64,000 bases of DNA from a virus. The stretch is taken from positions 1 to 64,000 of IMG/VR virus record IMGVR_UViG_3300017792_000017. One strand, written 5' to 3'. A program made the position numbers and the translations under genes. Shown here piece by piece: positions 3,316-24,639 of this stretch (its first letter is position 1; every line of letters begins with the position of its first letter). The notes beneath the pieces were generated by a model. It ran no database searches, had not been told where the DNA came from, and saw only the letters and a list, made by a program, of their open reading frames with translations.

Positions 3316-3711
3316 ATGATGAATTCACATCAACGCTCGGTGACGGTTGATCGTCTCAAGCTTATCGAACAACTGAAAGTAAACCTGGCTCAGCACAAGA
3401 TTGACTACGCTGAAGCAGTAGTCGGCTATCGTTTGAAACTGATGGACGATCTGGAGGTAAAGCTGTATGAAGTAAAGGCCTGCACAGCGACAGAAGCTCT
3501 CAAAGTCCGTGCAGTCCAGTTCGCTCCTCCTCAGAGTTACGAGAAAGAGTACGTAGATGCAATCGCAATGCTCGAATGGTCGGTCAGCGACACCATCGAA
3601 CTGGATCAAACGTTGTTCAAGCAATACGTCCAGAACGAATGGGGCTGGAGCCAGAACTTCGAAGTAGCAAGCTCACTGTACAAGACGTTCGCTGTCGGCG
3701 CAAGTCGCTAA
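3316..3711 (+). CDS. Hypothetical protein
   Basis: 131-aa ORF, phage-typical codon usage. Confidence 0.65.
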   Translation: MMNSHQRSVTVDRLKLIEQLKVNLAQHKIDYAEAVVGYRLKLMDDLEVKLYEVKACTATEALKVRAVQFAPPQSYEKEYVDAIAMLEWSVSDTIELDQTLFKQYVQNEWGWSQNFEVASSLYKTFAVGASR

Positions 3712-4050: not shown

Positions 4051-4221
4051 ATGGCCTCTCAACGACGAGCCTCTAAACCAAGACCTCCGAGGCACGAGCA
4101 GTTAAACGAAGGCCTGGTAATAAAGGCTAAAACAGGCGGTGAGCATAAAAACCGCAAAGATAAACGTACTACCAAGAAACAGTTTGAGAAGGAACTTACC
4201 TCCGAACTGGTTGGAGAATGA
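4051..4221 (+). CDS. Small basic protein (56 aa, not in ORF track)
   Basis: MASQRRASKPRPP...GGEHKNRKDKR; AAGGA RBS; next ATG at 4223. Confidence 0.5.
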   Translation: MASQRRASKPRPPRHEQLNEGLVIKAKTGGEHKNRKDKRTTKKQFEKELTSELVGE

Positions 4222-5190
4222 CATGACTCTAAGTGAAATATTCTGCATGGATTGTGGCCTCGAACACGCTGAGTCAAAGATGCTCTATGAAATCGAGGAA
4301 AACAAGGAAGCCTTCAAAAGACTTCTGTTCCGGTTGAATGATGCTACGCAAGAAGTAAATGCTGGTGATCGTGCAACTCTCATTCGTCTTCTCGAACCGG
4401 TAGTCAAATAGGAGTAGAACATGTCTGCTCGTGATGCTGTTGACCTCTCAGTTGGGCAAGAAGTCCTTCGCTACGAAGGTCGGTTCATGGAAAATCCGTG
4501 GGAAGTAATTCCCATCACCAACTACGAAGTTCTTCAGCGCAGTCCGGGTTGGGAAGTTCGTATCATCTACAAGCAGGACTAAGTTTAAATGTATATCGAT
4601 CCTCCTGGTAAAAAGCCTTTCGTAGCTGCTGATTTAGAATTCGAGAAAGAAACTCCTAAGCAGAAAGCTTCTCGTCTCGGAGTCCCTCTGATTCCGAAAA
4701 AGCCTATCAACCCGCCGCTGCACAATCCCGTCATCGCTGTATGCGGTGAGTGTGGACACGAGTTTCGTGGCGGGGTAGAATACCGCTCCTGTCCTCTTCA
4801 AGATTGTCCTACGGGAAGTCGTGTGACACTGAACTAATCAAAGATTTGATCGTGGTCCTCCTTTCTGGCGCTTGTTTCTAAGCGCCTTTTTTTTGATTAG
4901 CCAAGAGCGTATTTGGTATAAGGATAATGGTAAAAATTCTAATTCCAGAAACCACTGCGCTCAAAGGGGGCTCACACCATGTCAACTGAAAAGAAGTGTC
5001 ACGAAAAGAAGTACGATCAACTTACTGCAAAGAATGAAGCTGTGAGACTTACCCGCAAGGATAGGTTTCAGAAGCCGAAGACTGGTAGTGCGTTAGGTCA
5101 GTACAAAGCTTACTTCTGTAAAGAGTGTGACGCATGGCACATTCGGAAAGAAGGCCCAAAACAACAAAGTAGTAAACAAGAAAACATATT

Positions 5191-6594
5191 ATGTCCAGAA
5201 TCATCCTTCATACCTGCATGAATGCAGAAGACAACGCAATGCTTCAAGCGTTGTACTCACGTAGTATCGATAGCGTAGCCGATCACATCAAGAAGATTGA
5301 TGAGGTCGGTTCAAGTAATTTCATGTCCCGATACTACCTGGGATACGGACATGCGTCTATTGGTGACTGCGGTTCTGAAACAATGTATTTCGAGGGTATC
5401 TCAATGCTAGCTGCAAAGGCTATTGAAGATAACCCTCTTTTCGTAGGACAGGAGTGTAGCTCACGTTACATCGATTTCAGCTATCAACCCTTCTATGATC
5501 CTGCTCCGAAGAACTCAGAAATGAGCGGTCGGATTGCAAATCTTTACGCTGAGTATCGTAAGTTCTATGTCGAGAGTCTTGAGCCTCTGAAGGCTCATCT
5601 CAAGACAGTGTACCCAATCAAGGAAGGCGACAAGCTAGTTACCTATGACAAGGCTATTGCTGCACGTGCTTTTGATATTCTTCGTGGTTTTCTCCCTGTC
5701 GGTGCTACTACCAATGTGGCTTGGACTGGACGACTTAGCAACGCTGGTGAGCATCTCATTTGGATGATGCACCATCCGCTTGAGGAAGTTCGAGTTCTTG
5801 GAGCTAAGGCGTATCAACAGATGCAGATGAAGTATCCTAATTCGTTCCGTCTGGATTACGCAATCGTAGCTAATTGCTCAACACAAGAAGAGTTTGAGCG
5901 TGAGCTTAGGAACATCGAAGGCAATAACGTGTATGAGTTTAACTCTGACTTCCAGAACTTCTACGCTATGTATCAAGAGGTGACGGGCTACGAAAGGATA
6001 ACAGACCCTATTGAATTGGGAACATTTACTGTCGCTATTGAAGACGAAGATTCCAGGGCTCTGTGTCCTGGGTTTAAAGATCGCCCCAAGCGTACCAAAC
6101 TCCATAAACATTCCCTTGTTTCTCAAACCACTATTTGGACCGAGTCTAGAATGGACTTCGGTTCATTCCGGGATATCCAACGTCATCGTAATGGCTACTG
6201 CACAATGCCAGTTGTAACAGGAGAGTATGGTATTCATCCTTGGTACTACGACAATCTTACGCCTGAACTTCAGAAGAAGGCTGATGAGTTGCTTGAAAAA
6301 ATTGAGGATACGTATGACAGGTTGGATGTTCGTGAAAGCGACGAAGCTTTCTTAGCTTTCGGTCAATACATTCTCCCGATGGGTAATGTTGTTCAGGTGG
6401 CTTTCAAGTACACCGTTCAACAAGCTATGTACGTAGCTGAACTTCGTTCTGGTAAAACTGTTCACGCTACTGTCCGTCCATTTGCTCAGGCACTTGGTAA
6501 GTATCTGGAAGACTATGGTGTCCCAGTTTTCTATGATAAGGACGTTGATGACTGGACTGTTCGCCGTGGTGAGCAAGACATTGTCAAGAAGTAA
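5191..6594 (+). CDS. thyX: Flavin-dependent thymidylate synthase, long two-domain type
   Basis: GHASIGD, ECSSRYIDFS, DFGSFRDIQRHR motifs. Confidence 0.85.
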   Translation: MSRIILHTCMNAEDNAMLQALYSRSIDSVADHIKKIDEVGSSNFMSRYYLGYGHASIGDCGSETMYFEGISMLAAKAIEDNPLFVGQECSSRYIDFSYQPFYDPAPKNSEMSGRIANLYAEYRKFYVESLEPLKAHLKTVYPIKEGDKLVTYDKAIAARAFDILRGFLPVGATTNVAWTGRLSNAGEHLIWMMHHPLEEVRVLGAKAYQQMQMKYPNSFRLDYAIVANCSTQEEFERELRNIEGNNVYEFNSDFQNFYAMYQEVTGYERITDPIELGTFTVAIEDEDSRALCPGFKDRPKRTKLHKHSLVSQTTIWTESRMDFGSFRDIQRHRNGYCTMPVVTGEYGIHPWYYDNLTPELQKKADELLEKIEDTYDRLDVRESDEAFLAFGQYILPMGNVVQVAFKYTVQQAMYVAELRSGKTVHATVRPFAQALGKYLEDYGVPVFYDKDVDDWTVRRGEQDIVKK

Positions 6595-6671
6595 CTAAAT
6601 ATTGGTATAAGCACAGTGTCGGGAACAATAACGTTTTCGGCACTTTTTCTTTAGCGTTAAGGAGACTCAAA

Positions 6672-7139
6672 ATGATCAAGTCCGGTAACTACATCATCAT
6701 CCCGATTGGCGTTTCTTGCTTCGTCATCGAAGAAAAGGAAGACAAGTTGGAACTCGTAGGCGAAGCTCCTGGCAAGAGCATTGACGACATTTTCAACGAC
6801 ATGCGTAAGACCGTTCACGGCCTTGCAATGCAAGAACGTAAGTTGGTGGAGCAGACCGAGCGTAGCTGGAGGCGTTTCCAAGCGACGAAGGAATTCATGT
6901 CGGAAGCGGAACTCCAAGTTACCGAAGGACTGTGGGAGAACTTCAAGCTTGACGAAATGAAGGCTGACTGCGAACGTTTTGCATCAAACTTCGAGAAGGC
7001 ACTGTTCGAATTGACGGACCTGATGCTCGAACACAACCTGGTCATCAAGTCGGTTGAAGGCGGTGAGGAATCTCCGCTCAAGGGTATCAGCATGGAGTCT
7101 GTAAAAAGCATGCTTGATAATCTCGGCAAATCCGAGTAA
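6672..7139 (+). CDS. Hypothetical acidic protein
   Basis: AAGGAG RBS; downstream of the promoter at 6602. Confidence 0.7.
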   Translation: MIKSGNYIIIPIGVSCFVIEEKEDKLELVGEAPGKSIDDIFNDMRKTVHGLAMQERKLVEQTERSWRRFQATKEFMSEAELQVTEGLWENFKLDEMKADCERFASNFEKALFELTDLMLEHNLVIKSVEGGEESPLKGISMESVKSMLDNLGKSE

Positions 7140-7198
7140 AATTGATTTATCAGCGGTAGCAGAGAGTTACCGCTTCTTTTAACTTTCGAGAGGCTCGA

Positions 7199-8356
7199 AT
7201 GTCACATAGTAAACTTTATCATGAAGTGGCTGAAATGTACGCAGCTACTTTTGGCAGTAAACAACTCGCAGTATCCACAGAAGAAAAGCAATACGACCTG
7301 GCTGTAGTCATTGGTCGTTTCGAACCTCTGCATGTAGGTCACCAGATTCTCCTGAACAAGGCATTCATGGTGGCTGACAAGGTACTGGTTCTTATCGGTT
7401 CTTCGCACGCTCCCCGCACTATCAAGAATCCGTTTACGTACGATGAACGTTCGCAGATGGTTATTCAAGCGGCTGGTACTTCGAACATTTTCACGGCTCC
7501 GCTTGTGGATAACCTCTACTCAGATGATGAGTGGGTTACTTCCGTGCAAAACGAAGTAGCAACTGTTCTCTTGGCAGGAAAGGGTTGGGCAGACAAAGAT
7601 GTAAAAAGCAAGGTTGCAATCGTCGGTAACAAGAAGGACGAAAGCTCATACTACCTTGATCTCTTCCCGCAGTACGATTACGTTGCAGTAGACGAAGTCA
7701 AGCTCGGCTTTGATGCTACAGCTATCCGTGAAGTAATCTTTGAGAAGCCTGGATTCATTGAGCTTCTCAAGAGTTTGGTTCCGGAGTACACTTTTAGCTT
7801 CATCAAGGAGTTCATCAAGACTCCGGAGTATCTACGTCTTGGACGTGAATACAAGATGGTACAGAAGTACAAAGACTCCTGGAAAGCAGCACCGTATGCA
7901 CCAACCTTTGTGACTGTCGATGCGATTGTCAAGAAGGCTGGCCATATTTTGATGGTGAAGCGTAAGGCTGCACCGGGAGAAGGACTCCTTGCATTACCTG
8001 GAGGATTCCTGGAACAAAATGAAAGGCTTGAAGATGCGGCGATCCGTGAATTACAAGAGGAAACTTCGATTGACCTCCCTAGAGGTCTTCTTAGCGGTAG
8101 TATGTCTGCCGGTGTTGTTTTTGATCATCCTGGCCGTAGTTTGCGTGGGCGCACTATTTCGCACGCTTTTCTTTTTGACCTGGATAAGTCGGACAAAAAG
8201 CCGGGGCTTCCTAAGGTAAAGGGTGGCGACGATGCAGTCGCAAGCACCGCTTTGCAAAAGGCTACAGACTGGTACGAGATCGACTATGTACTCAGTCACG
8301 CTGAACTGATCTTCGAAGATCACTCATCGATCATTCGCAAGATGCTTGGTATCTAA
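7199..8356 (+). CDS. nadM: Bifunctional NMN adenylyltransferase / Nudix ADP-ribose hydrolase (NadM-Nudix)
   Basis: GRFEPLHVGH (HxGH), NPFTYDER, Nudix box GGFLEQNERLEDAAIRELQEETS, C-terminal FEDH. Confidence 0.92.
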   Translation: MSHSKLYHEVAEMYAATFGSKQLAVSTEEKQYDLAVVIGRFEPLHVGHQILLNKAFMVADKVLVLIGSSHAPRTIKNPFTYDERSQMVIQAAGTSNIFTAPLVDNLYSDDEWVTSVQNEVATVLLAGKGWADKDVKSKVAIVGNKKDESSYYLDLFPQYDYVAVDEVKLGFDATAIREVIFEKPGFIELLKSLVPEYTFSFIKEFIKTPEYLRLGREYKMVQKYKDSWKAAPYAPTFVTVDAIVKKAGHILMVKRKAAPGEGLLALPGGFLEQNERLEDAAIRELQEETSIDLPRGLLSGSMSAGVVFDHPGRSLRGRTISHAFLFDLDKSDKKPGLPKVKGGDDAVASTALQKATDWYEIDYVLSHAELIFEDHSSIIRKMLGI

Positions 8357-8409
8357 AACAAAAGTCCCAGAAATAGATTCTGGGCATTCTAATTAACGAG
8401 GTGTTAATA

Positions 8410-9807
8410 ATGTCACAATTCAAAATCAATCCGCTTCTCAATACCGATTCATACAAGCACAGCCACTTCCTGCAATACCCGGCTGGTGCAACTGCTCTGT
8501 CTTCTTACGTAGAACCCCGTAAGGACAATAGCGGTTTCGGTATCACCCACGTAACTCCGTTCGGCCTTCAAGGCTACATCAAGGATCACCTTCTGACTCC
8601 GATTGCGCTTGACGACGTGATTGAAGCAGGACGTATCTGTAAGCTTCACGGAGAGCCGTTTGCAGAAGGCGCATTCCGTAAAGTGGTAGAAGTGTACGGA
8701 GGTCGTGCGCCTATCACGATCCGTGCTGTAGCTGAAGGTACGCAAGTGCCTATCAGCAATGTTATCATTGACGTCGAATGTCACGATCCCGAAATGCTTT
8801 GGATGGGTTCATTCTATGAAACGCAAATCCTTCGTGCGGCCTGGTTTGGTACCACAGTTGCGACGATCAGCCGTCACTGTAAAGAAATCATCTTCAAAGG
8901 ACTGGTCGATACGTGCGATAAGCCTCTTGACGAGCTTCCTTTTAAGCTTCATGACTTCGGTGCTCGTGGTGCTAGTTCTGCAGAAACTTCTGCTATTGCT
9001 GGTGCCGCACACTTGGTGAACTTCATGGGTACGGACACCATGCTCGGCATGGAGTACGCTCATCAATTCTACGGAGCAGAACGTGATTCTCTTGGGTTTA
9101 GCATCCCTGCTGCTGAGCATAGTACTATTACTAGTTGGGGGCGTTCAGGAGAAGCGGACGCATACCGTAATATGGCTGAGAAGTTCGGCAGTGGCCTTTT
9201 CGCAGTTGTCTCTGATAGTTACGACATCTTTAATGCTGTCAAAAACGTCTGGGGCGATACCCTTCGTGATTTTGTCCTTGCTTTGCCTGGTACTCTCGTT
9301 GTTAGACCTGATTCCGGAGATCCGGTGTCGGTTGTTAGGACGGTTGTTGGGATTCTCGCAGACAAGTTCGGATACGCGACGAACGGTAAAGGGTTCAAAG
9401 TCCTGAACAAGGTTCGTGTCATCCAAGGCGACGGTGTAAACCCTACCTCAATCGCAGCTATTCTCACGGCTCTGAAGATGGATGGTTTCAGTGCTGAGAA
9501 CGTTGCATTCGGTATGGGTGGTGCTCTTCACCAGAAGCTTGACCGTGATACGTTTGGTTTTGCAATGAAGGCTTCGGCAATTCAAATCGATGGTAAGTGG
9601 AATGACGTGTACAAGGACCCCGTCGCTGGTGGCAAGACTAGCAAGCGTGGTCGTCTGGCACTGGTCAGTGACGAAAGCGGTGAACTTACTACGATCCGTC
9701 GTGAAAATGCAATGGGTCGTGACGATCATCTCGAAGTCGTATACACTGGCGGTAAGCTCGTGAAGGAACTGACGTTCAACGAAGTTCGCAGGAACGCTGC
9801 AATCTAA
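8410..9807 (+). CDS. nadV: Nicotinamide phosphoribosyltransferase
   Basis: TDSYKHSH, LHDFGARG, SIPAAEHS, VVSDSYD, VRPDSGDP, IQGDG, FGMGG; ATG 8410 after GAGG. Confidence 0.95.
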   Translation: MSQFKINPLLNTDSYKHSHFLQYPAGATALSSYVEPRKDNSGFGITHVTPFGLQGYIKDHLLTPIALDDVIEAGRICKLHGEPFAEGAFRKVVEVYGGRAPITIRAVAEGTQVPISNVIIDVECHDPEMLWMGSFYETQILRAAWFGTTVATISRHCKEIIFKGLVDTCDKPLDELPFKLHDFGARGASSAETSAIAGAAHLVNFMGTDTMLGMEYAHQFYGAERDSLGFSIPAAEHSTITSWGRSGEADAYRNMAEKFGSGLFAVVSDSYDIFNAVKNVWGDTLRDFVLALPGTLVVRPDSGDPVSVVRTVVGILADKFGYATNGKGFKVLNKVRVIQGDGVNPTSIAAILTALKMDGFSAENVAFGMGGALHQKLDRDTFGFAMKASAIQIDGKWNDVYKDPVAGGKTSKRGRLALVSDESGELTTIRRENAMGRDDHLEVVYTGGKLVKELTFNEVRRNAAI

Positions 9808-18816: not shown

Positions 18817-19242
18817 ATGACTCTTTACGCACATCTTCAACAACTGCGGGTTGAAGCTCTGAAACTTGGTGATTCTTTTTCGTTTACTAAGCTTGGTACT
18901 GTCCTTGGGGAAGCCAAGCAAGTAGCTACGAAAAAAGAGAACCGTGACCCTACTGATGAAGAAGTAATTAGCATTGTCAAGAAGGGTCTTGAAGGCATTG
19001 CAGAAATGCTTGCGCATGAGAAGGATGATCTTAAGCGAGGCGCTCTCATTGCTGAACGCCAGCTTCTTCAAGGCTTCATGCCGACTCAGTTGTCAGAAAC
19101 TGAAATCAAGGTAATCATCGAGAATGCTGCACTGGATAACATCGGCAAGATCATGGCTATCTTCAAGAACAACTACGCAGGTAAATACGATGGAAAGCTT
19201 GTCTCAAAACTCGCTAACGAATTTCTATCAAGTAAGGTTTGA
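18817..19242 (+). CDS. GatB/YqeY domain protein
   Basis: TDEEVISIVKK, LQGFMPTQLSETEI, IGKIM, GKYDGKLVS. Confidence 0.8.
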   Translation: MTLYAHLQQLRVEALKLGDSFSFTKLGTVLGEAKQVATKKENRDPTDEEVISIVKKGLEGIAEMLAHEKDDLKRGALIAERQLLQGFMPTQLSETEIKVIIENAALDNIGKIMAIFKNNYAGKYDGKLVSKLANEFLSSKV

Positions 19243-19496: not shown

Positions 19497-20222
19497 ATGT
19501 CTAATCTTAAAGAAGAATGTCCTACACTTGACACCTCCAAAACGCGTCTTGTGTTCTTGGATATCGACGGAGTTTTGAACTCTGACAAGACTTTCATTCT
19601 TGCAGGGGCATGGCCTAACCTTGAAGTGGACTATGAAGCTGATATGGGCTACTTCGGAGGGCCGAGGGCTAAAGTTGTTAAAGCTCCGTATGTGAAGTAT
19701 CCCGAAGGCATTGATAAGTACGCAGTTGGGCTGCTTAACAAGCTCCTCGTTGCTACCAATGCTCATATCGTTGTCTCATCTACGTGGAGAGAAGGCGTTG
19801 ACATCTACAGTCTTAGGTTGGTGCTTGGCGCTATGGGTGTTGATCCTACTCGTGTTATAGGTAAGACACCTGAGTTCCGTGGTAATCGTGGAGAACAGAT
19901 ATTTGATTTCCTTCAAGGCATTAAAGAAAAACGTTACTACACAGGTCCAGACTTTTTCGTACAGAATGGAAGACTTATTCAGAGTCTATCTAAAGTACCT
20001 GTTACAGTCGAGTCATACGTAATTCTAGATGACATCAATGACTTTCTTCCGCAGCAAATGAAAGACGTTGTATTGACTGATGGGCGCGAAGGCTTGAGCC
20101 TTGCTGATACTTTGCTATGCGGGGCAGCACTCACTGGCAAAGACTTTGAATTGAATCATTTGATTCATGGTGAGGAATATCAAGGACGTATTCTCTGGAC
20201 TGAAAAAGAGAAGTATGAGTGA
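19497..20222 (+). CDS. HAD phosphatase of the 'Swiss Army Knife RNA repair' type
   Basis: VFLDIDGVLNS, IVVSSTWR, RGEQI, YVILDD, TDGREGL. Confidence 0.75.
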   Translation: MSNLKEECPTLDTSKTRLVFLDIDGVLNSDKTFILAGAWPNLEVDYEADMGYFGGPRAKVVKAPYVKYPEGIDKYAVGLLNKLLVATNAHIVVSSTWREGVDIYSLRLVLGAMGVDPTRVIGKTPEFRGNRGEQIFDFLQGIKEKRYYTGPDFFVQNGRLIQSLSKVPVTVESYVILDDINDFLPQQMKDVVLTDGREGLSLADTLLCGAALTGKDFELNHLIHGEEYQGRILWTEKEKYE

Positions 20223-20487
20223 AGAAGAAATCGCTGAGTACGGAAGGTCAGAGTACTTACGAGGAATTAAGGAAGGACGTTCTCAAGTCACTAGTGAAAT
20301 CGCTGAGTATAATAGACAGGAACAGCAGCGATTGAAAGAGTATTATGAGAGGCGAGAGAACAGAGGTTTACCCTTCTCTTAATTCAATAATTTAGTACTT
20401 GTTGGTATAAGCATATTGTGAAGGACATTCATAGCCACATCGAGTGTTCTTCATTTCCTTTTTATGTGGCTTTGTTTTAGGTTCAAG

Positions 20488-20751
20488 ATGTCAGCACTCA
20501 ATATTCAAACAGCAGCACGTAACGTAGTTCGCAACACTGTCAACCTTCGTCTTGAAAGCGATGTAACGATCAGTGATATGGCAGCTGCAACCAAGCTCTC
20601 AGAAAGCACTATCCGTCGCATTGAAAAGTTCAGCCGCCTTGGTGCCCTGGCTGGTAACTATCGTCCGCAACTCTCGACGCTGGTCAAGCTGGCTAACGCA
20701 GCAGATGTTACGCCGCAAGACTTCATTACGCAAGAACTTACCGTAGTGTAA
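20488..20751 (+). CDS. XRE-family HTH regulator
   Basis: LRLESDVTISDMAAATKLSESTIRRIE...PQLSTLVKLANA. Confidence 0.75.
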   Translation: MSALNIQTAARNVVRNTVNLRLESDVTISDMAAATKLSESTIRRIEKFSRLGALAGNYRPQLSTLVKLANAADVTPQDFITQELTVV

Positions 20752-20850
20752 GAAAAAGAATAAATCGCTTATAGTAGTATTCGACGGAGCGTATATATAG
20801 CTACGCTCCTTTCTGTTTTTTATCTCGGGAACAACAGAGGGCGATTCAAA

Positions 20851-21021
20851 ATGTTTAATGAAATCATTAGCGTTGTAGAGTACGAAGAAGGCTTTGCTCT
20901 GATCGAAGATACTCAGGGTAAATACCTGGCGACTAAGGACAATCCCGAAATCACATCACTAGAGTTTCCACGTTGTTGGCTTACTGACAATACTCGTGAT
21001 AGACTCTCGATGTTGACGTAA
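20851..21021 (+). CDS. 56-aa hypothetical protein
   Basis: GAGG RBS, ATG 20851, TAA 21019-21021. Confidence 0.5.
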   Translation: MFNEIISVVEYEEGFALIEDTQGKYLATKDNPEITSLEFPRCWLTDNTRDRLSMLT

Positions 21022-21024
21022 TAG

Positions 21025-21555
21025 CTGTGCATGGTGAGTAGGACATTTTCTCCTTCCCTTGATTGAGCAACCTGGGGTTATCCTACAGAATTGCTTTTTG
21101 AACCCCTTTTGGGGGCATGATGAAGTATAGAAGTAACGACAACGTTACTAGAAGTATGTAACATTCTTCGAAAGTTGTCTTCGCCTGCAGCGAAACCCAG
21201 GGACCGAGATGCTCTGGGTTCGAGAACAGCTCATCTAATATAGTTAACTATAAGTTATGAGCTGCAGGTGATGGACATCAAGCACCGCATGAGTTCATCA
21301 TGAACAACGACCTTCGGGTCGCACAGAGTTTGAAGTATCAAACTGGTTCAATAGCGATATCCGTTCTTTAGGGAAAGGGTTAAGTTGGAAGCCAGAGAGT
21401 ATCTGCAACAGTGCTCTACGTTGCTTTTCCGAAAGGCAAAGCAAAGACTCTACCTAGCTTGTAGCTAGGTAAAGCTAATTCTGGAGCTGTGGTACGACGT
21501 CGTCCTCTTGGCCAGGCACCCCTGGTTGGAAGAGACCGTCGTAGGTTCTGCACAG
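21025..21555 (+). ncRNA. Large (~530 nt) structured ncRNA, class unknown
   Basis: Terminal helix CTGTGCA/TGCACAG; nested helices 21116-21124/21294-21302 and 21182-21191/21261-21270; UUCG and GAAA tetraloops; strand inferred from neighbours. Confidence 0.6.
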
Positions 21556-21587
21556 AATGTGTTCAAGCTTATAGTTGTAAAAGTTTC

Positions 21588-21644
21588 GAGAGCCGTCGAA
21601 TTGGATTATCTGCCAAAAAATCTTCCAGTTCAAAATTCGCTTTC
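21588..21644 (+). ncRNA. Y-RNA-like unit 1 (short)
   Basis: GAGAGC-CG..GAATTGGA-TTATC...TCCAGTTC..GCTTTC. Confidence 0.65.
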
Positions 21645-21660
21645 AATAATTTAAGAAGTA

Positions 21661-21670
21661 ATGGTATAAT
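21661..21670 (+). promoter_or_regulatory. Promoter for Y units 2-8
   Basis: TTCAAT-17 nt-TATAAT with TG extension; unit 2 starts 7 nt downstream. Confidence 0.75.
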
Positions 21671-21677
21671 AACCTTA

Positions 21678-21742
21678 GTGAGCCGTTCTTATGTTGGGTT
21701 ATCAATTGGTGATTACTCCCCAGCATTATTCTTTTTGCTCAC
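21678..21742 (+). ncRNA. Y-RNA-like unit 2 (short)
   Basis: GTGAGC-CG...ATGTTGGG-TTATC...CCCAGCAT...TTTGCTCAC. Confidence 0.75.
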
Positions 21743-21796
21743 CCTCGCTTTAATCCTCGCATTGATTCTAAAGAGTCAGTGCCTGAATTAAAGTTC

Positions 21797-21928
21797 ATGG
21801 ACCGATAGAATGGTTTATCTAAACCCAAATCGCAAATTACAGGTTCGAGTCCTGTACTCCGCTGCAGTTGCGGGGTTGGTGAAATTGGTAAACACAGCGA
21901 TTCCAGATCCATTCGATTACTTGTCCAT
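21797..21928 (+). ncRNA. Y-RNA-like unit 3, YrlA type (permuted tRNA-Gly-like module)
   Basis: ATGGAC-CGA...TTGTCCAT; T arm ACAGGTTCGAGTCCTGT, looped acceptor ACTCCGC/GCGGGGT, then D arm. Confidence 0.85.
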
Positions 21929-21937
21929 TCCCATTTC

Positions 21938-22000
21938 ACGGGCCGTTCGATGCTAGGTTATCCCTCTTACTGATTCCCCTAGTTTCATTTCTTTGCCCGT
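21938..22000 (+). ncRNA. Y-RNA-like unit 4 (short)
   Basis: ACGGGC-CG...GCTAGG-TTATC...CCTAGT...TTTGCCCGT. Confidence 0.75.
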
Positions 22001-22010
22001 ATCAATTTTC

Positions 22011-22182
22011 AAACGAACCGAACGCATTAAGGGTTATCTACTATCGGAAAGTTAAACGACAGTCGTATCAGCAGTACTCGGAAACGAGAGATACTTCAAG
22101 AGGGTTAACATTGTTGTACTCTGCTTGAGCTAAAGCTAAGCTGGTGAATCCAGTATCTCCCTTGGCAAACATTTGTTCGTTT
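22011..22182 (+). ncRNA. Y-RNA-like unit 5 (long, non-tRNA module)
   Basis: AAACGAAC-CGA...AAGGG-TTATC...CCCTT...TTTGTTCGTTT with a ~120-nt insert. Confidence 0.7.
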
Positions 22183-22192
22183 TCTCAGTTTC

Positions 22193-22328
22193 GCTGAACC
22201 GCTTGTATTGGTTTATCTACTGTTAATAGAGAGGTCGAAGGTTCGAGTCCTTCTGTGGTTGCCCTACGGGTTGCCGCATAGCTCAGTTTGGTAGAGCGCT
22301 AAAAATTCCAGTACGCCTTTTGTTCAGC
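22193..22328 (+). ncRNA. Y-RNA-like unit 6, YrlA type (permuted tRNA-Asn(GUU))
   Basis: GCTGAAC-CG...TTTGTTCAGC; TCTA-CTGTTAA-TAGA, AGGTC, T arm, looped acceptor, GCTCAGTTTGGTAGAGC D arm. Confidence 0.88.
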
Positions 22329-22337
22329 TTCAATTTT

Positions 22338-22400
22338 GTGAGCCGTTTCGATTTGGATTATCCTTTTAAGATTTCCTCCAGATCACTTTCATTTGCTCAC
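22338..22400 (+). ncRNA. Y-RNA-like unit 7 (short)
   Basis: GTGAGC-CG...GATTTGGA-TTATC...TCCAGATC...TTTGCTCAC. Confidence 0.75.
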
Positions 22401-22408
22401 TACCTCTT

Positions 22409-22539
22409 TACGGGCCGTTAGTGTTAGATTATCACTATTCGGAAGTCGTGGCGTTGGTTCGAATCCAACTGCAGCCTTGAGGGTTGTATAGCTTAGCGGA
22501 TAGAGCACGTAAAATCTTCTAGCACGCCTTTTGCCCGTA
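22409..22539 (+). ncRNA. Y-RNA-like unit 8, YrlA type (permuted tRNA-Arg-like module)
   Basis: TACGGGC-CG...TTTGCCCGTA; T arm GTTGGTTCGAATCCAAC, acceptor TGCAGCC/GGTTGTA, D arm GCTTAGCGGATAGAGC. Confidence 0.85.
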
Positions 22540-22546
22540 TCCCCAT

Positions 22547-22924
22547 CATGACCTTTCGTATTTAACTTTGCAGTTTGGAAAGTGACTATAGAGTAACTCT
22601 GTAGGTATCAACTTCCCGCTTCCGTTGCGTACCACAAGACTCCGCTGCGCTACGTCTTGCGCTACTCCACTACAGCCGGAGATCCGCTGGGTCGCTTTAC
22701 AGCCCAGCATGAGGTCAGGTCATGACCGCAGTACCACTAGACTTACGTATCTCAAGCAGTTGTTAGATTGCTGGCTTAGAGTAACTCTAAGTTATAGCTT
22801 TCCGCTCTACGTCCTTCGGACTACGGCGGAGGAGATGATGAGCACGAGGAGCATCTCCAGGGCCCTGGTAACCAGGATCCGTAGATGTCTCAGCTCAGCA
22901 CCACATGTGGTAAGTTAGAAGTAC
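22547..22924 (+). ncRNA. Two paralogous ~180-190-nt structured RNAs (22547-22724 and ~22731-22924)
   Basis: Closing helices CATGACCT/AGGTCATG and GACTTAC/GTAAGTT; shared TAGAGTAACTCT hairpin (22589, 22777) followed by CTTYCCGCT. Confidence 0.55.
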
Positions 22925-22926
22925 CC

Positions 22927-22967
22927 GAAGGTCTGTTTCCATCTTGGATTCAGACCTTCTTTTTTTA
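22927..22967 (+). terminator. Terminator ending the ncRNA island
   Basis: GAAGGTCTG/CAGACCTTC stem followed by T8. Confidence 0.75.
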
Positions 22968-23007
22968 GTCGATTTAAACTTTGTTCCCTAAACTTAAGGA
23001 GCCTCAA

Positions 23008-24639
23008 ATGTCATTCAATACCCTCGCAAAGAATACCAATACCCGTACTGTTGCACGTACCACGCCACAGAATCGCCCGGCTGGTAACGCTCCGGTAGCT
23101 CAGGTCAAGAACAACGCTGGCGGCTTTGTATTTGAGATCTCTGGCCTTCAAAAGCTGGATCGATTCCTTATCATCGGCACGAGCGGTGGTACGTTCTACG
23201 CTAGCGAAAAGGACATCACGAAGCAGAACACAGATGAGGTCGTGAAGCTCATCAAGGCAAATGGCAAGGTTGTGGTTGATCGTGTGGTAGAGATCAGCCA
23301 AGCTGGCCGTGCCAAGAACAATGACTATGCGCTTCTGGTCATGGCTCTGGTCTTCACCCACGGTGACGTTGCAACCAAGATGTATGCGAAGGATAAGCTG
23401 AACCTCGTGGCTCGTACTGGCACGCACTTCATGCACTTCGTTGCATTCGCAAATGGTATGCGTGGTTGGGGCCGTTCGCTCAAGAACGTAGTTCAGAACT
23501 GGTATTCCTCAAAGGATACCGATAAGCTTGCGTTCCAGATCGTGAAGTACAAGCAACGTGACGGCTGGTCCCACAAGGACATCATGCGTCTGGCTCACGT
23601 CAAGCCTGGCACTGATCCGGTTCGTCAGAACCTGTACAAGTTTATCAACAAGGGTGCAGAGTCGCTGTCGCAAGGTGACCTCGTGCCTCAGCTTCTGATT
23701 GCTGCAGAGCAAGCCAAGACTGCAGATACGAAGACGTTGATTAAGCTGATCCAGGATTTCAAGCTCACGCATGAAATGATCCCGAATGAGCAGAAGAACG
23801 ACCCGAAGGTTTGGGAAGCTCTTGTGCCTCACATGGGTCTAGGTGCGCTGGTTCGCAACCTGAACAAGCTCACGGCAGTTGGTTTGATCAAGCCTTTCTC
23901 GGAAACGAGCAAGATTGTATCTGCCAAGCTCCACGACGTTGAAGCCATCCGCAAGGAACGTCTGCATCCGATGTCAATCGTAGTTGCGCAGAAGATCTAC
24001 GCGCAAGGCCGTGGCGATAAGGGTTCACTCGTATGGACTCCGGCCCGTACCATTGTGGCTGATCTGGAAGATGCATTCTACGTTTCGTTTGAAGCAGTAG
24101 AGCCGTCCGGTAAGAACATTCTGTTGGGCCTGGATGTATCGGGTTCAATGAGTGCTCCGATCAGCAATACGCCTCTGTTGAGCTGTGCTGAAGGTACGGC
24201 AATCATGGCTATGGTCACCGCTCGCACAGAGCCGTGGACTGAGATCCGTGGTTTCACGAGCGGCGCTAATGGCTTTAAGGATCTCGGGATCACATCCAAA
24301 GATACTTTGGCTACGGCGTGTGGTAAGGTTCGTGCGCACAACTTCGGTGGTACGAATTGTGCATTGCCGTTCGAGTATGCGCTTCAACATAAGTGGGACG
24401 TTGACGCTGTCTGTGTTTACACGGATAACGAAACGTGGTCTGGCGGCCAACACGTGTTCCAAGCGGTACGCAAGTATCGTCAGGGCATGAACAAGCCTGA
24501 AGCTAAGCTGATCACGGTCGGTATGGCTGTGAACAACTTCAGCATTGCTGATCCGACTGACCGCAATATGCTGGACGTGGTTGGTTTCGATACGGCAACT
24601 CCGAGGTTCATTTCGGAATTCATTGCTGGCAACCTGTAA
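23008..24639 (+). CDS. rsr: Ro60 / Rsr TROVE-vWA RNA-binding protein
   Basis: QVKNNAGGFVF..LDRFLIIGTSGGTFY, GWGR, VKYKQRDGWSHKD, MIDAS DVSGSM, TDNETW, IADPTD..MLDVVGFD; AAGGAG RBS before ATG 23008. Confidence 0.95.
   Translation: MSFNTLAKNTNTRTVARTTPQNRPAGNAPVAQVKNNAGGFVFEISGLQKLDRFLIIGTSGGTFYASEKDITKQNTDEVVKLIKANGKVVVDRVVEISQAGRAKNNDYALLVMALVFTHGDVATKMYAKDKLNLVARTGTHFMHFVAFANGMRGWGRSLKNVVQNWYSSKDTDKLAFQIVKYKQRDGWSHKDIMRLAHVKPGTDPVRQNLYKFINKGAESLSQGDLVPQLLIAAEQAKTADTKTLIKLIQDFKLTHEMIPNEQKNDPKVWEALVPHMGLGALVRNLNKLTAVGLIKPFSETSKIVSAKLHDVEAIRKERLHPMSIVVAQKIYAQGRGDKGSLVWTPARTIVADLEDAFYVSFEAVEPSGKNILLGLDVSGSMSAPISNTPLLSCAEGTAIMAMVTARTEPWTEIRGFTSGANGFKDLGITSKDTLATACGKVRAHNFGGTNCALPFEYALQHKWDVDAVCVYTDNETWSGGQHVFQAVRKYRQGMNKPEAKLITVGMAVNNFSIADPTDRNMLDVVGFDTATPRFISEFIAGNL

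What the first reader, a model, noticed from the sequence alone, without database searches (positions are those of the whole stretch)
21025..21555. ~530-nt highly structured ncRNA adjoining the Y array
Seen: an ORF-poor stretch closed by CTGTGCA/TGCACAG, with long nested helices (CATGATGAA/TTCATCATG, CGCCTGCAGC/GCTGCAGGTG, AACCCAGGG/CTCTGGGTT, TACCTAGC/GCTAGGTA, TACGACG/CGTCGTA) and UUCG/GAAA tetraloops. Known: phages encode large ncRNAs (GOLLD, ROOL) near tRNA clusters. I cannot assign this one to a known class.
Basis: partly seen in the sequence, partly recalled or inferred. Interest (0 to 1): 0.7.

Follow-up and report, generated by a model that had tools for sequence, protein, structure and literature searches.

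The report
Tandem phage RNAs, new family
The 530-base gap is real, conserved, folded non-coding RNA, but it is most likely a short leader plus two tandem copies of an undescribed 170-245-base phage RNA family that also occurs in phages without Ro60, so its function is still open.

Summary
Observation confirmed. Window 21025-21569 has no conserved reading frame and folds far better than shuffles (z -5.6). It matches no Rfam family. It is conserved in five distinct relatives from six viral contigs, while neutral sites in the neighbouring Ro60 gene are nearly saturated. Many helices keep pairing through changes on both sides. Wobble pairs place the RNA on the + strand.

The reading changes. The closing helix CTGTGCA/TGCACAG is not conserved. 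The stretch appears to break into three parts:
- a 5' pseudoknot leader (21036-21096);
- unit I (21116-21302);
- unit II (21326-21570).

Both units share one plan with the two "185-nt RNAs" at 22547-22924. The plan is a closing helix, GUAU, hairpin A, hairpin B with a G-NAA-C triloop, variable hairpins, AUG(A/U)G, then the closing strand. Covariance models did not confirm the kinship.

The 5' part of this plan recurs downstream of the same gene trio (HAD_SAK_2 repair-type phosphatase, HTH, 56-aa protein) in other phage lineages. One of these is a complete genome with no Ro60. The family therefore goes with that trio, not with Ro60. The function is unknown. My best guess is a protein-binding "handle plus module" RNA, analogous to Y RNA. 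The scan had noted the 185-nt RNAs on this same window, but not this link.

The parts
20851..21021 (+). 56-aa acidic protein gene (ORF56). It ends 3 nt before the RNA in the window and about 18 nt before it in L004-L006. It is the conserved upstream neighbour of the RNA island.
   Evidence: Intact homologues in L002, L004, L005, L006 and L053. Further homologues in L158-L163, each followed by an ORF-poor island. No Pfam, PHROG or Atlas match.
21025..21031 (+). Specific to the window.
   Evidence: 7 bp in the window. In the relatives it is no better than shuffled leaders.
21036..21096 (+). 5' leader domain. Helix Ha is 21038-43 with 21081-86. Helix Hb is 21056-61 with 21072-77. The Hb loop GAGCAA (21065-70) can pair with UUGCUU (21091-96), giving an H-type pseudoknot. 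UCUCCU in the internal loop is invariant.
   Evidence: Ha has 3 of 6 pairs changed on both sides and Hb has 2. The pseudoknot helix is invariant apart from one G-U to A-U change. L159 and L053 carry a plain hairpin here instead.
21102..21115 (+). Optional hairpin ACCCC-UUUU-GGGGG.
   Evidence: Present only in the window and L002.
21116..21302 (+). Unit I (187 nt). Closing helix P1 is CAUGAUGAA (21116-24) with UUCAUCAUG (21294-302). GUAU is at 21125-28. Hairpin A is 21133-48. Hairpin B (UAA triloop) is 21151-69. GUUGUCU is at 21174-80. A hairpin with a conserved CGAGAUG loop is at 21195-219. CAUGAG (21288-93) lies directly before the 3' strand of P1.
   Evidence: P1 has a covarying pair, U-A to C-G. 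Hairpins A and B covary. The descriptor hits 21125-21169. P1 plus AUGNG was found by script. The L159 orthologue at 4208-4372 has the same order and shares the CGGCUGCGCCGA hairpin with L004.
21309..21320 (+). Linker hairpin GACC-UUCG-GGUC between the two units.
   Evidence: A hairpin sits at this place in every homologue, each with unrelated stem sequence (CCAGAG/CUCUGG, GCAGAG/CUCUGC).
21326..21570 (+). Unit II (245 nt). P1 is (G)AGUUUGAA (21326-34) with UUCAAGCU(U) (21562-70). GUAU is at 21335-38. Hairpin A is long and irregular (21343-95). Hairpin B is AGAGUA-U-CUG-CAA-CAG-UGCUCU (21396-417). Further hairpins are at 21421-44, 21451-71 and 21493-543. AAUGUG (21556-61) lies directly before the 3' strand of P1.
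   Evidence: RNAalifold predicts the long-range P1 and the script finds it with AUGNG. The 3' core is 98.6% paired across 5 sequences. A 28-nt block is nearly invariant. Model R1 scores 147-163 bits in the five relatives only. A local hairpin, AGUUUGA/UCAAACU, competes with P1.
21549..21555 (+). It lies inside unit II.
21588..22540 (+). Array of Y-RNA-like units (context).
   Evidence: Sub-threshold YrlA matches at 22208-22330 (43.6 bits), 22449-22506 and 21831-21900. Unit ends were read.
22547..22924 (+). Units III and IV (the two "185-nt RNAs"), built to the same plan as units I and II.
   Evidence: Descriptor hits at 22558-22606 and 22747-22794. Alignment A9 shows shared (AU)GAC..CGUAU, hairpin B and CAUG(A/U)GGU. 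P1 plus AUGNG. R3 scores 44.6 and 40.4 bits, but these copies were in the training set.
22927..22966 (+). Intrinsic terminator closing the RNA island: 9-bp stem GAAGGUCUG/CAGACCUUC followed by U7.
   Evidence: Read from the sequence. The scan lists no + strand terminator between 20809 and 25239; it also misses this one because its loop is long.
22981..24639 (+). Ro60 (Rsr) gene (context).
   Evidence: Pfam TROVE 1.1e-35 and vWA_Ro60 4.5e-54.
19497..20751 (+). HAD_SAK_2 phosphatase-like gene (19497-20222) and Cro/C1-type HTH gene (20464-20751). Together with ORF56 they form the conserved trio upstream of the RNA island.
   Evidence: Pfam. The same trio is in L159. The HTH C-terminus is conserved in all six loci, including L053.

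Best explanation
Window 21025-21570 encodes + strand non-coding RNA that is under selection for its fold. It is probably not one 530-nt molecule. I read it as a short pseudoknotted leader followed by two tandem members (unit I, 187 nt; unit II, 245 nt) of an undescribed RNA family. Two further members (units III and IV) lie at 22547-22924, on the other side of the Y-RNA array.

Each unit has this order: a closing helix P1, an invariant GUAU directly after its 5' strand, hairpin A, hairpin B with a G-NAA-C triloop, variable arms, then AUG(A/U)G directly before the 3' strand of P1.

Inferred: the whole 2-kb island is one transcript that starts with or before the 56-aa gene and ends at the terminator at 22927. 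It would be cut into separate RNAs, as Y-RNA precursors are.

Inferred with less support: P1 with its GUAU/AUGNG internal loop, and hairpin B, form a fixed handle for a protein. Candidates are the 56-aa protein that is always encoded just upstream, the HAD_SAK_2 repair-type enzyme, or a host factor. The variable arms would be the working modules. This is the design of Y RNA with a different handle.

The family travels with the HAD_SAK_2/HTH/56-aa trio and does not need Ro60. In this clade a Ro60 gene and its Y RNAs sit inside the same island.
For: Real and selected:
- Fold z -5.55, -4.5 and -5.0 in three lineages.
- No conserved ORF.
- Five distinct homologues, all in the same place.
- Fourfold-degenerate sites of the adjacent Ro60 gene are only 42-49% identical between lineages, yet the RNA keeps invariant blocks of up to 28 nt.
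- The 5' part is 98% paired, with 9 pairs changed on both sides against 0-1 when partners are slid, and 0 of 500 shuffles reach this. The 3' core is 98.6% paired.
- The curated helices hold 29 G-U cells and no A-C cell, which fixes the strand.

Composite:
- The terminal helix is not conserved.
- Each unit has its own P1, abutted by GUAU and AUGNG. 9 of 13 units tested pass that strict rule, against 15 of 673 (2.2%) GTAT sites elsewhere in the genome.

Family:
- The descriptor GUAU + hairpin A + hairpin B hits only 21125, 22558 and 22747 in the whole 145-kb genome, all on the + strand. Shuffled genomes give about 1 hit per 290 kb.
- In 2.63 Mb of fetched DNA, every hit but one lies in an island downstream of an ORF56 homologue.
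- Hairpin B over 21 copies has 8 of 9 pairs changed on both sides, covariation score 0.81 against 0.23 for shuffles.

Not tied to Ro60:
- L158, L159/L160 and L163 carry the module (L159/L160 and L163 in multiple copies) downstream of ORF56; the HAD_SAK_2-HTH-ORF56 trio was confirmed by Pfam in L159 only. L161 has the ORF56-plus-island arrangement but no module hit.
- TROVE is absent from all five records. Two of them are 100% complete, one of which (L160) carries the module.
Against: - Kinship of units I and II with units III and IV rests on shared architecture and short motifs, not on a significant alignment. Model R3, trained without unit I, scores it 9.6 bits, E 0.8 in 2.4 kb. Model R2, trained on unit I, scores units III and IV 2.8 and 7.7 bits.
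- Unit II did not pass the strict descriptor. Its hairpin A is long and its hairpin B is bulged. L004 has GUGC where the others have GUAU.
- In L159 the 3' motif reads ACGAG, not AUGNG. My strict rule found only one of ten units in the phages outside the window's clade.
- The pairing measure for hairpin B is partly circular, because the copies were chosen for pairing.
- No transcript ends, processing sites or protein binding have been observed.
- ORF56 is acidic, which is unusual for an RNA binder.
- Only five close sequences exist, from three lineages.
Confidence: 0.5

Rival explanations
1. One large (~545-nt) ornate RNA that folds as a single body. It would be a new counterpart of ROOL or GOLLD, perhaps forming multimers, and would sit in an RNA-gene island by co-location only.
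For: The leader, unit I, the linker hairpin and unit II are contiguous, in the same order and with short linkers, in all five homologues. The window itself has a 7-bp end-to-end helix. A conserved pseudoknot and two conserved pairs of mutually exclusive helices suggest higher-order folding. Large unclassified RNAs lie beside RNA genes in other phages, and tmRNA lies upstream of Ro60 in L098 and L113.
Against: The end-to-end helix is not conserved. Each domain closes on itself. In L159 the leader is replaced by a plain hairpin and unit I is followed by different RNA. There is no Rfam match to ROOL or GOLLD.
Confidence: 0.2
2. A Ro60-specific partner or client: a non-Y RNA that Ro60 binds, for instance through its cavity, or that scaffolds several Ro60/Y particles.
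For: In this clade it lies in the same island and on the same strand as eight Y-like units and Ro60, with no terminator between them. Ro60 is known to bind structured non-Y RNAs, and a phage Ro60 binds phage-encoded Y-like RNAs (PMC12135203; PMC4201824).
Against: Orthologues of unit I and further module copies occur in phage genomes with no TROVE gene. Two of those genomes are complete. There is no conserved GNCGAA or GGUCCG-type Ro handle. There are no hits in 75 other viral Ro60 loci.
Confidence: 0.1
3. A cis-acting leader: structured 5' sequence that protects the polycistronic Y-RNA precursor from nucleases or guides its processing, with no function of its own in trans.
For: It is the first element of the island, 3-18 nt after the ORF56 stop. 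In L004-L006 it lies only 3-5 nt before the first Y unit.
Against: Two more units lie at the 3' end of the island. The same units occur in islands without Y RNAs. Conserved loops and flanks (GUAU, G-NAA-C, CGAGAUG) are more than stability would require.
Confidence: 0.1
4. A ribozyme, either self-cleaving or RNase P-like, that cuts the island transcript into its RNAs.
For: The fold is complex and conserved, with a pseudoknot and invariant unpaired nucleotides. The island does need processing.
Against: There is no match to any ribozyme family in Rfam at E <= 10. A module repeated four times is not what a single catalytic core looks like.
Confidence: 0.05
5. Chance structure or decaying remnants of RNA genes, with no function.
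For: The - strand also folds well (z -5.0 in the window, -5.3 in L004). My rough covariance-model E-values gave one false positive, 23.8 bits in coding DNA.
Against: Conservation is far above that of neutral sites. Compensatory changes are found in many helices. The G-U asymmetry is specific to one strand.
Confidence: 0.02

Closest known systems
Y RNAs of bacteria and phages (YrlA/YrlB, Rfam RF02553; Chen et al. 2014, PMC4201824; Thermus phage phiLo Yrl1/Yrl2, PMC12135203)
   Same: Several small RNAs are encoded in tandem on one strand and probably cut from one precursor. Each has a closing helix with conserved flanking nucleotides (a likely protein handle) and a variable inner module. In this clade they share an island with true Y-like units and Ro60.
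   Different: The handle differs: GUAU and AUG(A/U)G at the inner end of P1, plus a G-NAA-C hairpin, instead of the bulged ...C-CG / UUG... helix with GNCGAA. There is no tRNA-like module and no YrlA model match in 21025-21570. The units are longer, 165-245 nt. The family occurs in phages without Ro60.
ROOL (RF03087) and GOLLD (RF01998), large phage-associated RNAs near tRNA genes
   Same: Phage-encoded, highly structured, of unknown function, and located among RNA genes.
   Different: No covariance-model match even at E <= 10. The stretch is better explained as two smaller tandem domains than as one large fold. It is known from very few sequences.
tmRNA (RF00023)
   Same: A large structured RNA with pseudoknots. 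Real tmRNA genes lie 1.5-2 kb upstream of Ro60 in other phage contigs (L098, L113).
   Different: ARAGORN and Rfam find no tmRNA in the window or its relatives. There is no acceptor/T-arm domain and no tag frame.
The two "185-nt RNAs" at 22547-22924 of the same window (scan note e1-5825734)
   Same: The same order of elements as units I and II: P1, GUAU, hairpin A, hairpin B with a UAA triloop, variable arms, CAUG(A/U)G, P1.
   Different: Sequence similarity outside the short motifs is too low for a significant model match. Their hairpin B is nearly fixed (UAGAG-UAA-CUCUA), whereas that of units I and II differs.

Membership tests
ROOL (RF03087) / GOLLD (RF01998) / other large Rfam RNAs (OLE, HEARO, raiA) | Match to the family covariance model at or near its gathering score | tested here: not met
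   cmscan of the whole window at gathering score. cmscan of 20700-23100, 21000-21600 and the L005 homologue at E <= 10. No hit in the stretch.
Y RNA / YrlA (RF02553) | Match to the YrlA model, including the tRNA-like T and D arms | tested here: not met
   The YrlA hits lie at 21831-21900, 22208-22330 and 22449-22506. None lies in 21025-21570.
Y RNA / YrlA (RF02553) | Ro60-binding handle: a terminal helix with a GNCGAAN0-1G or GGUCCGA-type motif near the 5' end (PMC4201824) | tested here: not met
   The eight Y units show ...GCCG + U..GGNUUAUC / UUUG.... Units I and II have GUAU / AUGNG instead. A GGUCCG string in L004-L006 is not conserved in the window or L002.
Y RNA / YrlA (RF02553) | Encoded next to a Ro60/TROVE gene | tested here: inconclusive
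   Met in this clade. However, module-bearing islands occur in four records without TROVE (L158, L159, L160, L163), one of them, L160, complete.
tmRNA (RF00023 and the permuted forms) | tRNA-like acceptor/T-arm domain plus a tag reading frame, detected by ARAGORN or Rfam | tested here: not met
   ARAGORN finds none in the window or in L002-L006, yet it finds the tmRNA in L098. Rfam finds none.
Group I / group II introns, RNase P RNA, small self-cleaving ribozymes | Match to the family model. For introns, also a split host gene. | tested here: not met
   No Rfam hit at E <= 10. The flanks are a complete 56-aa ORF and a Y unit.
New family proposed here (P1-GUAU ... AUGNG-P1 units; the type copies are the 185-nt RNAs) | Closing helix whose 5' strand is followed at once by GUAU and whose 3' strand is preceded at once by AUG(A/U)G | tested here: met
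   Unit I has 9 bp, and unit II has 9 pairs including G-U wobbles. Both have the two flanks, in the window, L002 and L005. Background is 2.2% of GTAT sites. Exception: unit II of L004 has GUGC.
New family proposed here | Hairpin A followed within 4 nt by hairpin B with an NAA triloop closed by G-C, starting within 8 nt of GUAU | tested here: met
   Unit I is hit by the descriptor in all five homologues. Unit II meets it only loosely, with a long irregular hairpin A and a bulged hairpin B.
New family proposed here | Significant covariance-model match between units I/II and units III/IV | tested here: inconclusive
   R3, trained without unit I, gives 9.6 bits, E 0.8, at 21123-21171. R2, trained on unit I, gives 7.7 and 2.8 bits on units IV and III and 3.8 bits on unit II. 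It gives 27.3 and 21.4 bits on the first units of L159 and L163.

The most novel reading that the evidence does not exclude
Units I-IV are the RNA subunits of an undescribed phage ribonucleoprotein. A fixed handle (P1 with its GUAU/AUGNG loop, plus the G-NAA-C hairpin) would be bound by the 56-aa protein or the HAD_SAK_2 repair-type enzyme, and the variable arms would select targets or act as decoys. This would be a Ro60-independent counterpart of the Y-RNA system, used in RNA repair or in RNA-level conflict with the host. In some phages it would have been joined by Ro60 and Y RNAs in one operon.
Probability: 0.3. Interest if true: 0.8.

Novelty: new variant of a known kind. Interest (0 to 1): 0.62.

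Why it matters
Structured RNAs of this size that match no catalogued family are uncommon, and those studied so far have tended to have elaborate roles. This one appears as a modular, repeated family with a recognisable handle. It sits in the same operon as Y RNAs and Ro60 in one phage clade, and next to an RNA-repair-type gene trio in others.

If the units bind a protein, this would be a second "handle plus module" RNA system beside Ro60/Y RNA. It would also give a direct way to test what phage RNA islands do in infection. If they do not, the result still corrects the picture of one 530-nt RNA. It also ties this finding to the two 185-nt RNAs noted separately on the same window.

Tried and rejected
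- Rfam at gathering score and at E <= 10, on the window and on L005: nothing.
- GenBank phages by megablast and blastn: no match. The nearest cultured relatives by terminase, Salmonella phage Arash and Vibrio phage D69, lack Ro60.
- An exact-pattern scan of viral contigs found only the five known contigs. The same kind of scan of metagenome and GTDB genome contigs gave only chance hits, none extended by nhmmer.
- 75 other viral Ro60 loci: no hit with nhmmer, R1 or R2.
- tmRNA, group I intron, RNase P and Y-type handle were considered and rejected (see the membership rows).
- Closing helix 21025-31 with 21549-55: not conserved.
- L053 (Ro60 53% identical, same HTH-ORF56 upstream, a 2.2-kb gap): the stretch at 2336-2910 occupies the same position and has similar motifs. 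However, nhmmer finds nothing at any threshold and its fold is weak, z -2.2. Homology is not shown. One descriptor hit lies at 3651-3695 inside a Y-like unit.
- A second R1 hit in the window's own genome (89084-89242, 23.8 bits, E about 1e-5) turned out to be a small membrane-protein gene plus a terminator. The rough E-values of my models therefore cannot be trusted near that level.
- A whole-region RNA-RNA duplex search between the stretch and the rest of the island was uninformative.
- ESM Atlas on ORF56: nothing.
- A resemblance of hairpin B to the 16S decoding-site sequence, and of the CGAGAUG loop to the sarcin-ricin loop, was considered from memory only. The homologues do not keep either, so both were dropped.
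The contigs of Ro60 relatives P0002-P0023 could not be fetched.

Full report
**Setting.** The window is the first 64 kb of a 145-kb IMG/VR phage record. The + strand carries, in order:
- a HAD_SAK_2 gene, the HAD domain of "Swiss Army Knife" RNA repair proteins (19497-20222);
- a Cro/C1-type HTH gene (20464-20751);
- a 56-aa ORF (20851-21021);
- about 1.95 kb with no credible ORF;
- Ro60 (22981-24639; TROVE 1e-35, vWA_Ro60 5e-54).

The ORF-free stretch holds the finding (21025-21555), an array of Y-RNA-like units with sub-threshold YrlA matches, two "185-nt RNAs" (22547-22924), and a strong terminator at 22927-22966.

**Observation.**
- The + strand folds at -193.1 kcal/mol against -153.2 +/- 7.2 for shuffles, z -5.55. 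The - strand gives z -5.0.
- Rfam 15 finds nothing in the stretch at gathering score or at E <= 10.
- ARAGORN finds no tRNA or tmRNA there.

**Relatives and selection.** The Ro60 protein led to five IMG/VR contigs, four of them distinct (L002 = L003, L004, L005, L006). All carry the stretch at the same place.
- All six frames are full of stops in every copy.
- Between the three lineages, Ro60 is 73-77% identical in protein but only 42-49% identical at fourfold-degenerate sites, so neutral positions are nearly randomised.
- The RNA is 57-62% identical overall. It is a mosaic of invariant blocks, up to 28 nt long, and arms whose sequence is entirely replaced while a hairpin is kept.
- RNAalifold predicts 110 pairs, 34 of them with a change on both sides.
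- On the 5' part, my curated helices are 98% paired, with 9 pairs changed on both sides against 0-1 when partners are slid by 1-3 columns, and 0 of 500 shuffles reach this. The 3' core is 98.6% paired.
- The curated helices contain 29 G-U cells and no A-C cell, so the RNA is read from the + strand. Fold energy alone does not decide the strand.

**What did not hold.** The closing helix CTGTGCA/TGCACAG is 7 bp in the window, but in the relatives the two ends pair no better than shuffled leaders do. The helix CGCCTGCAGC/GCTGCAGGTG is missing from the nearest relative.

**Anatomy.**
1. *Leader, 21036-21096.* Two nested helices covary. The loop GAGCAA can pair with the downstream UUGCUU, giving an H-type pseudoknot. 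That helix is invariant, so it is untested by covariation.
2. *Domain closed by CAUGAUGAA/UUCAUCAUG, 21116-21302.* One pair of this helix covaries.
3. *A linker hairpin.* Its stem differs in every lineage.
4. *Domain closed by AGUUUGAA/UUCAAGCU, 21326-21570*. A local hairpin competes with this helix. Both pairings tolerate the observed changes through wobble pairs.

**The turn in the reading.** Searching viral contigs with an alignment of the 56-aa protein gave new loci: L158, L159/L160, L161 and L163.
- Each has an ORF56 homologue followed by a 1.2-2.4-kb ORF-poor island. Pfam confirmed HAD_SAK_2 and HTH upstream in L159 only.
- None of the five records has a TROVE gene, and two of them are 100% complete.
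- A covariance model of the 5' part of the finding (R2) hits directly after ORF56 in L159/L160 (27.3 bits) and L163 (21.4 bits). Its two-hairpin portion hits several further places in those islands.
- Read by eye, the first L159 element (4208-4372) has the same order as my second domain. It has a closing helix ACGAUCA/UGAUCGU, AGUAU, hairpin A, hairpin B with a UAA triloop, a CGGCUGCGCCGA hairpin identical to that of L004, and ACGAG(U) before the closing strand.

**Descriptor test.** I wrote the shared part as a descriptor: GUAU, up to 8 nt, a hairpin of at least 4 bp, up to 4 nt, then a hairpin of at least 6 bp with an NAA triloop closed by G-C.
- In the whole 145-kb genome it hits three places: 21125-21169, 22558-22606 and 22747-22794. 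All are on the + strand and inside the island. Shuffled genomes give about one hit per 290 kb.
- In 2.63 Mb of all fetched DNA, both strands, every hit but one lies in an island downstream of an ORF56 homologue.
- Hairpin B, aligned over 21 copies, has 8 of 9 pairs changed on both sides (covariation score 0.81 against 0.23). The pairing percentage is partly circular, because the copies were picked for pairing.

**Four units, one plan.** The domain at 21116-21302 and the two 185-nt RNAs therefore share a module. They also share the rest of the plan.
- In units I, II and IV of the window, and in most copies in L002, L004 and L005, the strand just before GUAU pairs with a strand 160-245 nt downstream that is directly preceded by AUG(A/U)G.
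- Only 2.2% of other GTAT sites in the genome do this.
- Unit III fits with a 2x2 internal loop.
- Unit II (21326-21570) fits the plan with a long hairpin A and a bulged hairpin B.

I therefore read the finding as a leader plus two tandem units of one family, with two more units beyond the Y array.

**Limits.**
- Model-based support for kinship among the four units is weak. R3, trained on 16 copies that exclude unit I, gives unit I 9.6 bits, E 0.8. R2 gives units III and IV 2.8 and 7.7 bits.
- My model E-values are rough. One 23.8-bit hit elsewhere in the genome was coding DNA plus a terminator.
- The stretch at the equivalent position in L053 could not be shown to be homologous.
- The family is known from few contigs, all metagenomic.

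**Function.**
- *Shown:* the RNA is conserved, structured, modular and on the + strand. It is linked to the HAD_SAK_2/HTH/ORF56 trio and is independent of Ro60.
- *Inferred:* it is transcribed together with the Y units. There is no + strand terminator between 20809 and 22927. In L004-L006 only 3-5 nt separate unit II from the first Y unit. Y RNAs are known to be cut from one precursor (PMC4201824).
- *Inferred with less support:* the invariant flanks of P1 and the G-NAA-C hairpin are a protein handle and the variable arms are modules, by analogy with Y RNA. A phage Ro60 with its own Y-like RNAs acts on host PNPase (PMC12135203). The neighbouring HAD_SAK_2 gene points to RNA repair or RNA-level conflict. 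No step of this has been tested.

**Comparison and novelty.** The stretch fails the model tests for ROOL, GOLLD, YrlA, tmRNA, introns and RNase P. It resembles Y RNA in design but not in its handle, and it does not depend on Ro60. I could find no paper linking large or non-Y RNAs to phage Ro60 loci. I rate it a new RNA family of a known general kind. Interest is moderate to high, limited by the small number of sequences and the absence of any functional data.

Noticed in passing
window 20851-21021; L159 4001-4171; L053 2069-2299: A conserved 54-76-aa acidic protein (core EGFA[LI]I[EK]D) is encoded directly upstream of the RNA island in every lineage. It has no match in Pfam, PHROGs or the ESM Atlas. 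It is a candidate partner of the RNAs.
   Followed up: partly
window 22864-22876, plus 21151-69, 21396-417, 22586-604, 22772-94: Hairpins with an NAA triloop closed by G-C are concentrated in the 2-kb island. There are five there, against five elsewhere on the + strand of the 64-kb window.
   Followed up: partly
L098 2533-2958; L113 2205-2635: Other phage contigs, with Ro60 about 41% identical, carry a tmRNA gene and tRNA genes 1.5-2 kb upstream of Ro60. Phage Ro60 genes therefore often sit in RNA-gene islands.
   Followed up: no
L159 4706-4778 and 4820-4870: The Ro60-less island of L159 holds a tRNA gene and a T-arm-like stretch between copies of the module. It has no YrlA-type hit.
   Followed up: no
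L053 3573-3709: In L053 one copy of the GUAU/two-hairpin module lies inside a unit that begins like a Y RNA (AGCCGUCUAGUAUUGGAUUAUC). This may be a hybrid of the two handle types. Model E 0.02, so it is only a lead.
   Followed up: partly
window 20786-20809 and the homologous positions (alignment A7): A hairpin between the HTH gene and ORF56 is kept in all relatives with different stem sequences and a short U run. It could be a leaky terminator or the 5' stem-loop of the island transcript.
   Followed up: no
own genome G000:C1 89208-89232 and 90052-90075 (L152 2709-2731, 3553-3575): The phage's terminators share a GCCCAGCU-NNNN-(A)ACUGGGC hairpin that resembles the hairpin at 21451-21471 of unit II. 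This caused a false covariance-model hit in coding DNA.
   Followed up: yes
window 21065-21096 and 21553-21569: CAGAAU followed by a strand that pairs back into an upstream loop or helix occurs twice: CAGAAUUGCUU in the leader and CAGAAUGUGUUCAA at the end of unit II. The leader may be a cut-down unit.
   Followed up: no
window 5191-9807 and 18817-19242: The phage encodes ThyX, an NMNAT-Nudix fusion, NAMPT and a YqeY/GatB-like protein upstream of the RNA island.
   Followed up: no
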